Origin: a virus
Taxonomy: Duplodnaviria > Heunggongvirae > Uroviricota > Caudoviricetes
Virus record (IMG/VR): IMGVR_UViG_2537561692_000011
Strand: one strand, 5' to 3'
DNA length: 5,936 bases
The notes below the pieces were generated by a model that was not told the origin of the DNA, searched no databases, and saw only the letters and a list, made by a program, of their open reading frames with translations. Of this stretch, positions 1 through 5,936 are shown piece after piece. Each line of letters begins with the position of its first letter. Positions within the stretch are counted from its first letter, which is position 1. A program made the position numbers and the translations under genes.

Positions 1-1053
1 TGCTGCGCTGGCCTGTTCAGTGGCTTCGCCAGCCTTCGTTGTGGCTGTTGAAGCAGACGATGCGGCACTTTCTGCCGATTTTCCGGCGGCGGTGGCACTG
101 GCTGAGGCCTGCCCGGCACTTGTTGACGCGGCACTGGCAGACGACGCAGCCGCTGTTTTTGAGCCTGCCGCAGCCGAGGCGCTCTGTCCCGCTGCCGTTT
201 CAGAAGACCTGGCGTTTGTCTCAGACGTTTTTGCCGCCTTCGCGGAATTGCCTGCCGCCGTTGCCGAGGAAGCGGCACTACTGGCGCTTGATGATGCGTT
301 CGTTTCTGATGATTTCGCTGCCTCTTTTGAGGCCGCCGCATCCCGGGCTGAGGTGGCAGCTTCTGACGCTTTCGTGGTCGCGGTGGATGCAGAAGTGGCT
401 GCAGATTTTTGTGACGCTGCAGCATTCGTTTCTGACGTTTTCGCCGCACCAGCACTGGTAGCCGCCGCGCTTTTTGAGGACTCTGCAGCGGCAGCACTTT
501 TTGATGCTTCAGTAGCCTTTGTTGATGCCGTTCCTGCGCTGGAAGACGCTGACTGAGCCGACGTCGCGGCCTGCCCGGCTGATGTGCTGGCTGCACGTGC
601 TGAGCCTGTAGCATCAGTCGCATGGGTTGCCGCCTCACGGGCTGATGTGCCGGCATCGCTGGCTGACTTCTTCGCGGCTGCCGTGTTCTGTGCCACCGCG
701 GACGCGTTACGCGCCACCTCTTCCACCATCAGTTCAAAGCGGCGCAGTGCCTCCGGACGGACATCATCCTCCGTCATGGCACCGAGAAAATCATTCAGCG
801 TACCCGGTTGTGAGTCTTCATACACGGTGATGGTCCCGGCATGCGATGGCGGGAAGCCTTCCACCAACAGAATAACGCTGTACTGACCGTACTCAACGTC
901 CATGCTGTAACGCCCGGCTTCATCCGGATTTTCTGAGGCCACCGTGTTCGCCACCACCGTGGTGCTGTTACGTTTTGCTTTCAGCTGGATTGTACAGTTC
1001 TGTACCGGTTTACCTGCACCGTCTTTCAGTACACCTGAAATCTTTACTGCCAT
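1..1053 (-). CDS. stf: Side tail fibre protein Stf, N-terminal 351 codons (partial; gene continues beyond window position 1)
   Basis: ATG at 1053..1051 (plus-strand 'cat'), preceded by the Shine-Dalgarno-like GGGGTGA. I checked every minus-strand codon in this frame from 1053 to 1 and found no stop. Translation begins MAVKISGVLKDGAGKPVQNCTIQLKAKRNSTTVV...GRYSMDVEYGQYSVIL...HAGTITVYEDSQPGTLNDFL, which I recognise as the lambda Stf (orf-401) N-terminus, followed by an Ala/Ser/Thr-rich low-complexity shaft. Not listed in the ORF track because the stop lies outside the window. Confidence 0.85.
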   Translation of the reverse strand, partial: MAVKISGVLKDGAGKPVQNCTIQLKAKRNSTTVVANTVASENPDEAGRYSMDVEYGQYSVILLVEGFPPSHAGTITVYEDSQPGTLNDFLGAMTEDDVRPEALRRFELMVEEVARNASAVAQNTAAAKKSASDAGTSAREAATHATDATGSARAASTSAGQAATSAQSASSSAGTASTKATEASKSAAAAESSKSAAATSAGAAKTSETNAAASQKSAATSASTATTKASEAATSARDAAASKEAAKSSETNASSSASSAASSATAAGNSAKAAKTSETNARSSETAAGQSASAAAGSKTAAASSASAASTSAGQASASATAAGKSAESAASSASTATTKAGEATEQASAA

Positions 1054-1063
1054 ATTCACCCCA

Positions 1064-1091
1064 CAAAAAAGCCCGCCTGAACCGGCGGGCT
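1064..1091 (-). terminator. Rho-independent terminator downstream of lom (minus-strand orientation)
   Basis: Perfect 8-bp stem, 1070-1077 (agcccgcc) pairing with 1084-1091 (ggcgggct), 6-nt loop. On the minus-strand transcript the hairpin is followed directly by a run of six U (complement of aaaaaa at 1064-1069). Lies between the lom stop (1118) and the stf start (1053). No T-run follows on the plus strand, so it is unidirectional. Confidence 0.6.
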
Positions 1092-1117
1092 GTCATAACA
1101 CTGTGTTACCTGGCTAA

Positions 1118-1717
1118 TCAGAACTTATAACCAACACCCACGATGAAACCGTCAGTGCGCCAGTTGCCACTGCCGGAGCCTTCATAAGCGACATCAACGG
1201 CCACGGATTCGGTCGGGTTAAACTGCACGCCAGCCCCCCACGCCAGAGACGTGTTGCTGTGGCGACCGTCATCACTTCCGGTCAGCACATCGTGCTTTTT
1301 CCCCTTGTTGTCAGTTACGCGAAGATAATCCCCGGAGAAAGTCGACACACGGCTGTAAGCCACACCCGCCATCGCATACGCGCTGAACCATTCATTCACG
1401 CGCACAGACGGCCCCGCCATTACGCTGAACCAGCGGTTACGAACGGAATCTTCATGCCAGCGGGTATCGCTGTAGTGCGTTTTTTGCTCATCCTCAGCAT
1501 TGGCATAACTGAAGGACGTAATCAGCCCCAGCGCGTCCGTAAACTCATAACGGTATTTCACGTTAATCCCGTTCAGATTATCGCTGCCGGGAGCGTTCGT
1601 ACGGGCATGAAGATACCCCGCGCTCAGTGTGGACTGATGTTCAGACGCCCATGCAGGCGCACCGGATACGGACAGACAGATGGCTGCGGACAAAATGACT
1701 GCACAAACTTTACGCAT
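1118..1717 (-). CDS. lom: Lom outer-membrane protein (Ail/PagC/OmpX-family 8-stranded beta-barrel; lambdoid lysogenic-conversion 'moron')
   Basis: Complete 199-aa ORF, ATG at 1717..1715, TGA at 1120..1118, RBS GAGAGG about 6 nt upstream. Translation MRKVCAVILSAAICLSVSGAPAWA|SEHQSTLSAGYLHARTNAPGSDNLNGINVKYRYEFTD...WGAGVQFNPTESVAVDVAYEGSGSGNWRTDGFIVGVGYKF is near-collinear with lambda Lom as I recall it. It has a typical signal peptide with an AWA-S cleavage motif and the C-terminal aromatic residue (...YKF) characteristic of outer-membrane beta-barrels. Confidence 0.93.
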   Translation of the reverse strand: MRKVCAVILSAAICLSVSGAPAWASEHQSTLSAGYLHARTNAPGSDNLNGINVKYRYEFTDALGLITSFSYANAEDEQKTHYSDTRWHEDSVRNRWFSVMAGPSVRVNEWFSAYAMAGVAYSRVSTFSGDYLRVTDNKGKKHDVLTGSDDGRHSNTSLAWGAGVQFNPTESVAVDVAYEGSGSGNWRTDGFIVGVGYKF

Positions 1718-1741
1718 AATTACCTCTCGCTTTTCTGCAAT

Positions 1742-1765
1742 AAAAAAGGCGCCATTTCTGGCGCC
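1742..1765 (-). terminator. Rho-independent terminator immediately downstream of J (minus-strand orientation)
   Basis: Palindromic GC stem ggcgcc (1748-1753) / ggcgcc (1760-1765) with loop atttct. On the minus-strand transcript it is followed by UUUUUUAUU (complement of aaaaaa at 1742-1747). Sits about 20 nt after the J stop (1787..1785) and about 25 nt before the lom RBS. Confidence 0.55.
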
Positions 1766-4700: not shown

Positions 4701-5200
4701 TATCCACCACCACCGAGGCCAGATACTGGAGTGGTTTTGCCCTTAATGGTGATGTCTTTTTCCGTCACCCAGCCACCTTACGTGTATCTGAACCAGCAGG
4801 CGACTTCCGACGGATTCCGTCCCCCTTTGAGGTGGTTTCCACCAGTGCCTGCACACCGAAGGTAAAGCGCAGACGGTCGATGTTTGCCGACGTGATGGTC
4901 CGGGTATCGGCGTGTCTATTTCACTTCCGTACCCAGTACCGTCTCGGACCGAGATTCAAATCCCTCCGGCGGTGTCTGTTCCTGCTCACCTGCCCGGAAC
5001 ACCACCGTGACACCAGAGATGTTAGTATTCCCCTCACTGTCCAGCACCGGTGTACTGTTCAGCAGCACGCTTTTTAATCCATCCACCGGACCTTCAACCG
5101 GCCCTTCGCTGATGGCATCGATCACACTCAGCAACTGCGTGGACTTCAGGTTGTCCTTTGCTTCGCGCGGGGTATGCCCCTTACTGCTGCCTTTACCCAT
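1785..5200 (-). pseudogene. J: Host specificity protein J (tail tip central fibre), lambda gpJ homologue, disrupted by multiple single-base frameshifts
   Basis: ATG at 5200..5198 with GGAG RBS; TGA at 1787..1785; locus length 3416 nt, close to the ~3.4 kb expected for gpJ, so no large insertion or deletion. gpJ-like translation is found in successive minus-strand ORFs in different frames. 4916..5200: MGKGSSKGHTPREAKDNLKSTQLLSVIDAISEGP...GTEVK. 4242..4592: KQCYPNTALVGVQVDSEQFGSQQVSRNYHLRGRILQVPSNYNPQTRQYSGIWDGTFKPAYSNNMAWCLWDMLTHPRYGMGKRLGAA. 4093..4392: DVDKWALY. 3526..3711: LISLVDG, KVSRVPDGVA. 2878..3519: [11 protein letters not shown]...[26 protein letters not shown]...FEFWFSEK. 2690..2881: [13 protein letters not shown]...YLDFFKG. 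1785..2702: intact C-terminal 305 aa, ...NSMWAVK...[24 protein letters not shown]...VIDMPAGRG...[10 protein letters not shown]. Frame switches located by hand at about 4918, 4905, 4778-4784 (two), 3509-3512, 3461-3464, 2933 and 2700, with more in 3530-4240 and 4600-4900. Confidence 0.85.
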
Positions 5201-5222
5201 TCGTCATGCTCCATAAACGATA

Positions 5223-5242
5223 AAACCGCCCGGAGGCGGTTT
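5223..5242 (-). other. Intergenic GC-rich hairpin between I and J
   Basis: Perfect inverted repeat aaaccgcc (5223-5230) / ggcggttt (5235-5242) with 4-nt loop cgga, in the 58-nt I-J spacer. On the minus-strand transcript it is followed by UUUUAUCGUUUAU and then the J RBS (GGAG). Possibly an attenuating or stabilising structure; function unknown. Confidence 0.3.
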
Positions 5243-5260
5243 CACATAAAACATTTTGCA

Positions 5261-5902
5261 TCAGCGACCAATCACCACAACCTGACCACCTCCCCTTCGT
5301 CTGCCGTGCTGATCTCCTGAGAAACCACCGTGACCCCACGCGCATTTCACCGTACAGAACGGCAGAACATTGCCCTGGGCAACCATGTTATCCAGTGAGG
5401 AGAAATAGGTGTTCTGTTTGCCGTTATCTGTACTTGCTGCCGTGGGCGTCCTGGCTTTCGGTGCCAGCATCTGCGCCACCCGCCCAGGATCATACTGGCC
5501 CCTGCCGCATACATGCCCGATACAGCCGCGGCACCCAGCCAGCCCACAGGGTTCCACCATGCCACCGCAATCACGCCGCCCCCAGCACCACCTGAAAACA
5601 CCGCCACTTTTAGCTCCCGCCAGACGCGGCACGATATGGATCACGGCACCATTTGCCAGCGGCTCATTAAGACGGGCAGACAATTCGGTTTCACCTGCAT
5701 CACGCCCGGCAATGCGTACCTGATACCAGCCGTCGCTCAGTTTCTGACGAAACGCCGGGATCTGCATGGCCAGCGCCCGGATGGCTTCGGCCCCCGTTTT
5801 CACACGAAGGTCGATGCGGCGGCCAAATCGTTGCAAATCCCCGTAAAGGCAGATGCGTGCCATGCCCGGTGACGCCAGAGGGAGTGTGTGCGTCGCTGCC
5901 AT
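5261..5902 (-). CDS. I: Tail tip assembly protein I (lambda gpI homologue); full-length ORF is open but contains two internally compensated out-of-frame blocks, so it may be a pseudogene
   Basis: ATG at 5902..5900, TGA at 5263..5261, 213 codons. N-terminus MAATHTLPLASPGMARICLYGDLQRFGRRIDLRVKTGAEAIRALA...GAVIHIVPR.AGAKSGGVF and C-terminus ...GGQVVVIGR match lambda gpI, as does the internal segment VAQMLAPKARTP...TDNGKQNTYFSSLDNMVAQGNVLP. The stretches between (about 5478-5596 and 5292-5359) read as nonsense in this frame (RWCWGRRDCGG..., FCTVKCAWGHGG...). The gpI-like sequence there is found in an alternative frame instead (86-aa ORF 5347..5607: ...VIAVAWWNPVGWLGAAAVSGMYAAGASMILGG...). Confidence 0.75.
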   Translation of the reverse strand: MAATHTLPLASPGMARICLYGDLQRFGRRIDLRVKTGAEAIRALAMQIPAFRQKLSDGWYQVRIAGRDAGETELSARLNEPLANGAVIHIVPRLAGAKSGGVFRWCWGRRDCGGMVEPCGLAGCRGCIGHVCGRGQYDPGRVAQMLAPKARTPTAASTDNGKQNTYFSSLDNMVAQGNVLPFCTVKCAWGHGGFSGDQHGRRRGGGQVVVIGR

Positions 5903-5936
5903 TTGTCGGTATACCTCTCTCGTTTACTCAGTTGTT

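What the first reader, a model, noticed from the sequence alone, without database searches (positions are those of the whole stretch)
1..5936. Indel damage is patchy: stf, lom and the J C-terminus are clean while I and the rest of J carry clustered deletions
From 1 to about 2690 (stf N-terminus, lom, J C-terminal 305 codons) I find no frame disruption across more than 850 checked codons. From 2700 to 5902 there are at least 16 single-base deletions. Within that damaged span there are long clean patches (about 2940-3460; about 4330-4590) alternating with clusters of 2-5 deletions inside 100-300 nt. That is not a uniform random-error pattern, nor what I would expect from slow natural decay, where substitutions and larger deletions also accumulate. 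Two hypotheses: (a) a consensus artefact, since J and I are conserved, multi-copy sequences among lambdoid prophages and are prone to collapsed or poorly polished assembly, whereas lom, stf and the J tip are copy-specific; (b) genuine recent inactivation of tail assembly with selective retention of lom.
Basis: inference. Interest (0 to 1): 0.5.

Follow-up and report, generated by a model that had tools for sequence, protein, structure and literature searches.

The report
Assembly artefact in collapsed prophage genes
The apparent frameshift damage in these prophage tail genes is not biology: a 2013 draft assembly merged reads from several near-identical prophage copies and dropped one base wherever the copies differ, so the "pseudogenes" are a database error.

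Summary
Against intact homologs the window lacks 70 single bases, not about 16. It has no true insertions. All losses lie in 2646-5597 and none in 1-2645, and the clean patches are statistically significant.

The deletions are not mutations or read errors. 59 of 71 sit on columns that vary among 10 intact homologs (14.5 expected). 29 of 36 unambiguous ones are codon third positions (P=8e-9). Homopolymers and Dam/Dcm motifs play no role.

The window is the entire 5936-bp contig AQCD01000047.1 of E. coli p0305293.8, from an Illumina-only, >200x, Celera Assembler project. Contigs from isolates .4 and .6 of the same series carry a base where the window has a gap, often the alternative allele, and have private gaps of their own. 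They also join the same block to different flanks. None of about 15,500 homologous places in complete E. coli genomes shares the shortening.

Verdict: a consensus artefact over collapsed lambdoid-prophage paralogs. The exact consensus step that drops the base is inferred. Biological interest is low, but it matters for database quality control.

The parts
1..1053 (-). N-terminal 351 codons of the side tail fibre gene (stf). It runs off the left contig end. No indels and no substitutions against the closest intact homolog.
   Evidence: Annotation of the homolog, called genes, alignment
1118..1717 (-). lom (Ail/Lom outer-membrane beta-barrel), intact at 199 aa. 15 substitutions cluster in 1289-1698. 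No indels.
   Evidence: PF06316; ENG75065.1 / WP_001673866.1
1785..2645 (-). Copy-specific C-terminal part of tail tip protein J (receptor-binding end). Clean and identical to the reference.
   Evidence: 298/300 aa identical to the intact J C-terminus
2646..5200 (-). N-terminal three quarters of J. It carries 65 of the 71 alignment deletions (64 artefactual plus one natural ins/del pair), which fragments the gene into many short ORFs. Interpreted as the collapsed-paralog consensus.
2965..3460 (.). Longest clean patch inside the damaged span (496 bp). Over ref 3000-3299 the .4 assembly differs from the window at only 6 sites, so the copies are near-identical there.
4333..4597 (.). Second clean patch (265 bp).
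4953..5289 (.). Third clean patch (337 bp). The window and isolate .4 share the same substitutions against the reference here, consistent with a single allele.
5261..5902 (-). Tail assembly gene I. It has six one-base deletions that sum to -6, so the ORF stays open (213 against 215 aa) but has two frame-scrambled stretches.
   Evidence: (PF06805)
5800..5936 (-). 3' end of gene K (C40 peptidase), overlapping I, up to the right contig end. No deletions here. In isolate contigs .4 and .6 the damage continues through K and L.

Best explanation
The window is a whole short contig from an Illumina/Celera Assembler draft of ETEC isolate p0305293.8. Its right-hand 3.3 kb (J N-terminal part, I, K end) is a consensus built from reads of two or more lambdoid prophage copies that are a few percent divergent. 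Wherever those copies differ, mostly at synonymous third-codon positions, the consensus step often emitted no base at all instead of one allele. That produced about 70 one-base 'deletions' and no insertions. The left-hand 2.6 km-free part, 1-2645 (J C-terminus, lom, stf start), is specific to one prophage copy, so only one allele was present and the sequence is correct. Clean patches inside the damaged span are places where the merged copies are identical or where one copy's reads dominated.

Shown here: the positions coincide with SNP columns and wobble sites; assemblies from the same isolate series disagree; the pipeline is documented; the block is multi-copy.

Inferred: the exact algorithmic step. 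One plausible route is that mismatching alleles are staggered into separate gap-majority columns of the read multi-alignment, and each column is then called as a gap.
For: 1. Spectrum. There are 70-71 one-base deletions, 0 true insertions and few substitutions. Across ref 2647-4900 there are about 60 deletions against only about 8 substitutions.

2. Position relative to polymorphism. 59 of 71 deletions fall on columns polymorphic among 10 intact homologs, against 14.5 +/- 3.3 expected; 0 of 5000 random draws reached 59. With the draft contigs added, 61 of 71 sites show an alternative allele somewhere.

3. Codon position. 29 of 36 unambiguously placed deletions are at codon position 3 (P=8e-9). 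61 of 71 can be placed there against 37 expected. This mirrors the natural substitutions (29:4:3).

4. Source. The window equals the whole contig AQCD01000047.1 (5936 bp) of GCA_000358695.2, E. coli p0305293.8. The project used Illumina HiSeq2000 at >200x with Celera Assembler (PMC4462620).

5. Other assemblies of the same isolate series.
- p0305293.6 calls C and T at two sites where the window deletes A. All 14 substitutions shared by the two contigs in that overlap are identical.
- p0305293.4 has a base at 28 of the window's 64 deletion sites in the shared span (14 alternative allele, 14 reference allele), and 15 private deletions.
- .4 and .6 differ from each other by 51 gaps and 22 mismatches in 1.9 kb.

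6. Multi-copy block. .4 joins the block to a different J C-terminus (86% identity) and to upstream tail genes only about 66% identical to those in .6. Complete relatives hold 4-7 homologous places per genome, with a median of 3 across E. coli.

7. Same pipeline, same lesion. Other genomes of this project (P0304777.13, 2731150) show 58-65 deletions, no internal insertions, and the same SNP-site and codon-3 enrichment.

8. Absent elsewhere. No complete E. coli genome among about 15,500 homologous places shares the shortening; the best match is 96.8%.
Against: - No reads were available, so elevated depth and mixed alleles over 2646-5936 were not seen directly.
- A reconstructed single 'copy B' carrying all alternative alleles has no natural match better than 97.9%. 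A simple two-copy model is therefore not confirmed. Three or more copies are needed; the deletions at 2646-2725, for example, match mEp332-like alleles rather than the .4 flank copy.
- Population SNP density does not predict where the clean patches are (rho -0.09), and the .4 isolate explains them only in part.
- 10 of 71 sites show no alternative allele in the sequences sampled.
- I found no published description of Celera Assembler dropping SNP columns.
- Clonality of the P0305293 isolates is inferred. The paper names only P0299917 and P0299438 as non-clonal. It does not mention P0305293 in its main text, and its supplement could not be read.
Confidence: 0.93

Rival explanations
1. Genuine pseudogenisation: the prophage really carries about 70 one-base deletions in J and I, which inactivate tail assembly while lom is retained under selection.
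For: lom and the J tip are intact while J and I are disrupted. 36 deletions are shared with isolate .4 and some with unrelated strains of the project.
Against: The deletions target synonymous SNP columns and codon position 3, which no known mutational process does. The spectrum is deletion-only, with far fewer substitutions than deletions. Assemblies from the same isolate series disagree at 43 deletion sites in the J/I region, and some show the alternative allele instead. None of about 15,500 homologous places in complete genomes carries the shortening. The sharing is confined to one sequencing and assembly project.
Confidence: 0.02
2. The same consensus artefact, but the mixed alleles come from a heterogeneous DNA sample (two co-cultured strains or contamination) rather than from paralogous prophages within one genome.
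For: Correlated SNPs can also arise from heterogeneous samples (PMC2397507). The study found mixed ETEC populations in 2 of 12 patients.
Against: The artefact appears in the same gene block in at least five independently sequenced isolates from several patients. It is confined to a block known to be multi-copy in E. coli. In .4 and .6 the block is flanked by two different prophage tail modules. Contamination should degrade unique regions too, yet 1-2645 and the H gene of .4 are clean.
Confidence: 0.04
3. Platform read errors surviving in an unpolished or low-coverage region: long-read or 454 homopolymer indels, or errors linked to methylation motifs.
Against: The run-length distribution of deleted bases matches the background (51% singletons against 56%). 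There is no GATC or CCWGG association. The project was Illumina-only at >200x. Random errors would not coincide with SNP columns or wobble positions.
Confidence: 0.01

Closest known systems
Collapsed-repeat mis-assembly with correlated SNP columns (Phillippy, Schatz & Pop 2008, 'Genome assembly forensics', PMC2397507)
   Same: Reads from distinct near-identical repeat copies are merged into one unit. The differences between copies line up as columns in the multi-alignment. The result is a short contig bounded by repeat edges, and different assemblies join the repeat to different flanks.
   Different: That description concerns disagreeing reads under a consensus that still calls a base. Here the emitted consensus loses the base altogether at many of those columns, which produces frameshifts. 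I found no description of that outcome.
Homopolymer indel errors of 454, Ion Torrent or nanopore assemblies that create false pseudogenes
   Same: Single-base indels fragment otherwise intact genes and give spurious truncated proteins in public databases.
   Different: There is no homopolymer enrichment, the data are Illumina, the damage is confined to a multi-copy block, and the positions track inter-copy SNPs.
Genuinely defective lambdoid prophages of E. coli that retain accessory genes such as lom or bor (own knowledge: K-12 Rac, DLP12, Qin)
   Same: A lambdoid tail region has an intact lom beside disrupted structural genes.
   Different: To my knowledge, real decay shows large deletions, IS insertions and substitutions shared by relatives. 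It does not show 70 one-base deletions at wobble sites that differ between isolates of one series.
Lambda-type tail tip module K-I-J-lom-stf
   Same: Gene order and homology are standard: 94-98% nucleotide identity to many phages and prophages, with Pfam Lambda_tail_I, Ig_J, Phage_Tail_Tip and Ail_Lom hits.
   Different: Nothing biological differs once the dropped bases are restored.

Membership tests
Collapsed-repeat consensus artefact | The affected sequence is present in several near-identical copies in the genome | tested here: met
   Homologs occur at a median of 3 places per E. coli genome and at 4-7 in the closest complete relatives. Isolates .4 and .6 attach the block to two different tail modules (about 66% identity) and a different J C-terminus. 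The other contigs of the p0305293.8 assembly itself were not examined.
Collapsed-repeat consensus artefact | Errors are located at positions where the copies differ | tested here: met
   59/71 on columns polymorphic among intact homologs against 14.5 expected. 29/36 at codon position 3. The other isolates of the series show the alternative allele at 14+2 of the sites.
Collapsed-repeat consensus artefact | Independent assemblies of the same strain disagree in the affected region only | tested here: met
   .8 against .4: 28 window-only and 15 .4-only deletions. .8 against .6: 2 of 4 discordant. Unique regions are clean: window 1-2645, and H and M of .4. Clonality is inferred from PMC4462620.
Collapsed-repeat consensus artefact | Read depth is elevated and alleles are mixed over the collapsed region | not testable with these tools
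Collapsed-repeat consensus artefact | A short contig whose ends or internal boundary coincide with the edges of inter-copy homology | tested here: met
   The window is a whole 5936-bp contig. High-identity homology to the .4 copy ends at window 2761, and to mEp332-like alleles near 2646. In .4 the damage starts where homology to the .6 copy starts, at M/L.
Genuine prophage pseudogenes | Lesions are reproducible in clonal relatives and in independent high-quality genomes | tested here: not met
   Discordant between isolates of one series. Absent from about 15,500 places in complete genomes.
Genuine prophage pseudogenes | A mutation spectrum of natural decay: substitutions outnumber indels, larger deletions or IS elements occur, and there is no codon-position preference | tested here: not met
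   70 one-base deletions, 0 insertions, few substitutions, and a strong codon-3 bias.
Homopolymer or methylation-linked platform indel errors | Indels are enriched in homopolymer runs or at Dam/Dcm motifs | tested here: not met
   Run lengths match the background. GATC 1 against 0.5 expected and CCWGG 1 against 0.6 expected.
Lambda tail tip module (K, I, J, lom, stf) | Homology and gene order match annotated lambdoid phages | tested here: met
   Once the deletions are allowed for, the J C-terminus is 99% and I 73% identical at protein level.

The most novel reading that the evidence does not exclude
The single-base losses are real and arise in the cell. For example, recombination between diverged prophage paralogs forms heteroduplex DNA, and an aberrant repair process excises the mismatched base. 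That would give deletions precisely at inter-copy SNP sites, and fast enough that colonies from one patient differ.
Probability: 0.01. Interest if true: 0.8.

Novelty: not a real feature. Interest (0 to 1): 0.08.

Why it matters
This has no biological significance. The prophage tail genes of this ETEC strain are most likely intact, so no inference about loss of tail assembly or selective retention of lom should be drawn.

It does have practical value. The artefact recurs in at least five assemblies of one large public ETEC project (p0305293.4, .6 and .8, P0304777.13 and 2731150, with a shared fragment in P0302293.6). It has seeded protein databases with spurious fragments, for example ENG75066.1, a 305-aa J fragment named 'fibronectin type III family protein', and ENG75073.1. 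IMG/VR also carries three such contigs (L003-L005, from isolates p0305293.4, P0304777.13 and 2731150).

The diagnostic signature can flag similar regions without reads: deletion-only damage, no homopolymer bias, deletions on wobble and SNP columns of a multi-copy gene, and a sharp boundary at the edge of inter-copy homology. An ORF-only check can miss the damage, because gpI stays open.

Tried and rejected
1. Homopolymer association: none.
2. Dam (GATC) and Dcm (CCWGG) association: none.
3. A single 'copy B' built from the commonest alternative allele at each deletion site: no natural match better than 97.9% in complete E. coli genomes, no better than copy A itself. The two-copy model is therefore unconfirmed.
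4. Population SNP density as the explanation for the clean patches: no correlation (rho -0.09).
5. Exact-string search for the source contig: nothing in GTDB representative genomes, and nothing in IMG/VR for the boundary string. The source was found instead through the truncated ORF.
6. Look-up of the 65-aa gpI fragment of p0305293.3: not on record.
7. Supplementary Table S1 of PMC4462620 (per-isolate statistics): not held.
8. Literature search for a description of Celera Assembler dropping SNP columns: only the general collapsed-repeat / correlated-SNP framework was found.
9. Retrieval of the paralogous J copies of the closest complete genome (602354, 4 places): not possible, because the search tool lists one place per record.
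Full report
WHAT IS THERE

The window is a lambdoid prophage tail-tip region read on the minus strand:
- K 3' end, 5800-5936
- I, 5261-5902
- J, 1785-5200
- lom, 1118-1717
- the first 351 codons of stf, 1-1053

It is 94-98% identical to many phages and E. 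coli prophages with the same gene order. Pfam hits on the called products agree: Lambda_tail_I, Ig_J, Phage_Tail_Tip and Ail_Lom.

CHECKING THE OBSERVATION

The best full-length homolog is E. coli 602354 (locus L001), which spans 6006 bp against the window's 5936. Global alignment gives 71 one-base deletions, 1 insertion and 53 substitutions. A second reference or another scoring scheme gives 70 deletions and 0 insertions. The lone insertion/deletion pair is a natural variant also present in a clean genome.

Every deletion lies between window 2646 and 5597. There is no indel in 1-2645 (P about 1e-18 under uniform placement).

Five deletions sit inside the supposedly clean 305-codon ORF. Three remove one codon in frame, and two shift its first six codons.

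The clean runs are 2965-3460, 4333-4597, 4953-5289 and 5598-5936. They are more than chance would give: the longest run is 497 bp (P=0.00045) and the variance/mean is 2.06 (P=0.0006).

gpI remains an open 213-codon ORF only because its six deletions sum to -6. Two internal stretches are scrambled.

WHAT THE DELETIONS ARE

They are not homopolymer errors. The run-length distribution of the deleted bases equals the background. They are also not linked to Dam or Dcm motifs.

Their spacing in multiples of three prompted a codon test. 29 of 36 unambiguously placed deletions hit codon position 3 (P=8e-9), and 61 of 71 can be placed there against 37 expected. This matches the distribution of the natural substitutions, 29:4:3.

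A direct test agrees. 59 of 71 deletions fall on columns that vary among only ten intact homologs, against 14.5 +/- 3.3 expected, and 0 of 5000 random draws reached 59. With the draft contigs included, 61 of 71 sites show an alternative allele somewhere.

The 'deletions' are therefore dropped SNP columns. Neither a mutational process nor random read error would produce that pattern.

WHERE THE SEQUENCE COMES FROM

The truncated 305-aa ORF is on record on exactly one contig, AQCD01000047.1 (5936 bp) of GCA_000358695.2. The window is that whole contig, reverse-complemented. The organism is Escherichia coli p0305293.8.

This isolate belongs to the GSCID/IGS ETEC project (PMC4309559). The project's genomes were sequenced on an Illumina HiSeq2000 (paired-end, 300-bp inserts, >200x) and assembled with Celera Assembler, with several colonies sequenced per patient. 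Only patients P0299917 and P0299438 gave non-clonal isolates (PMC4462620). Illumina data at that depth cannot leave 2.4% random deletions, so the consensus step is implicated.

INDEPENDENT ASSEMBLIES

An exact 56-mer spanning six deletion sites occurs in three IMG/VR contigs. Protein look-up identifies them as E. coli P0304777.13, p0305293.4 and 2731150, all from the same project. A fourth contig, from p0305293.6, was retrieved through a gpI fragment. Each of the three IMG/VR contigs has 58-65 deletions, no internal insertions, and the same codon-3 and SNP-column enrichment.

Comparisons within the P0305293 series:
- **.6 against the window.** Where the window deletes A at ref 5427 and 5547.6 calls C and T. 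All 14 substitutions shared by the two contigs in that overlap are identical.
- **.4 against the window (ref 2780-6006).** 36 deletions are shared, 14 window deletions are the alternative allele in .4, 14 are the reference allele, and .4 has 15 private deletions. All 33 shared substitutions carry the same base.
- **.4 against .6.** They differ by 51 gaps and 22 mismatches over 1.9 kb.

Real lesions in a clonal population would be identical across these assemblies. These are not.

MULTI-COPY NATURE

Homologs of this block occur at a median of 3 places per E. coli genome, and at 4-7 places in the closest complete relatives.

Isolate .4 joins the same J N-terminal sequence to a different J C-terminus (86% identity). 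It also joins it to upstream Z-H tail genes that are only about 66% identical to those on the .6 contig. In .4, H (859 aa) and M are intact, and the damage starts at L, where similarity to the other copy begins.

So this isolate series holds at least two lambdoid prophages that share a near-identical M-L-K-I-J(N-terminal) block between different flanks. The damaged stretches coincide with that block.

No complete E. coli genome, among about 15,500 homologous places, shares the shortened length.

THE PATCHES

The .4 isolate serves as a proxy for a second copy:
- **Ref 3000-3299** shows only 6 discordant sites. The copies are near-identical there, so there is nothing to drop.
- **Ref 2800-2999:** .4 follows its own flank's allele, with 17 alternative bases and no deletions, while the window drops 8 bases.
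- **Ref 3300-3399:** .4 has 8 private deletions and the window has none.

The pattern therefore depends both on where the copies differ and on which reads each assembly recruited.

Population-wide SNP density does not predict the patches. A single reconstructed 'copy B' has no natural match better than copy A itself. The deletions at 2646-2725 match mEp332-like alleles rather than the .4 flank copy. Three or more copies are probably involved. This part remains only partly explained.

MECHANISM

Shown: the collapsed multi-copy block, the SNP-column positions, the disagreement between assemblies, and the pipeline.

Inferred: how the base is lost. A plausible route is that the two alleles of a SNP are staggered into separate columns of the read multi-alignment. 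Each column then has a gap majority and is called as a gap. I could not verify this, and I found no published description. Only the general collapsed-repeat / correlated-SNP framework turned up (PMC2397507).

VERDICT

This is an assembly-consensus artefact, not a biological feature.
- Hypothesis (a) is right in essence but wrong on the technology and on the suggested homopolymer/methylation cause.
- Hypothesis (b), real inactivation with retention of lom, is not supported.

Biological interest is low. The practical point is that this project's public assemblies, and the protein and IMG/VR records derived from them, contain false prophage pseudogenes with a recognisable signature.

Noticed in passing
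L004 1-6700 against L015 1-5700 (isolates p0305293.4 and .6): The two contigs carry tail genes Z to H that are only about 66% identical, but they converge to near-identity from M/L through I and the J N-terminus. Two different lambdoid prophages in this isolate series appear to share one tail-tip module, with a mosaic junction near the H/M boundary.
   Followed up: partly
window 1289-1698 (lom): All 15 substitutions of the left half against the closest homolog cluster inside lom (3.7% over 410 bp), while the flanking stf start and J C-terminus are identical to that homolog. This could be a small recombination patch in lom, or a mixed consensus without dropped bases. The exact Lom protein (WP_001673866.1) is rare in the collection.
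   Followed up: no
window 5261-5902 (gene I): The ORF stays open (213 against 215 aa) despite six dropped bases, because they sum to -6. Only 157/215 residues match, with two scrambled stretches. A check based on ORF length alone would call this gene intact.
   Followed up: yes
window 1785-2702, and public records ENG75066.1 and ENG75073.1: Artefactual fragments are deposited as proteins. One example is the 305-aa J C-terminal fragment, named 'fibronectin type III family protein'. Equivalent fragments exist for p0305293.3, .4 and .6, P0304777.13, P0302293.6 and 2731150, and three of these contigs are in IMG/VR as viral genomes.
   Followed up: partly
L015 2313-5367 (p0305293.6): The tape-measure gene H is called as two products (654 + 368 aa) on this contig, whereas H of isolate .4 is one 859-aa ORF. 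This may be another consensus frameshift in a region otherwise free of obvious damage.
   Followed up: no
window 3645-3700 (ref 3680-3720): Six deletions in 56 bp are shared exactly by all four draft contigs from different patients, yet several of these sites (ref 3680, 3684, 3720) show little or no variation in the clean panel. A locally divergent multi-base allele, hinted at by phage 640R1/cdtI-like sequences, may be the partner copy.
   Followed up: partly
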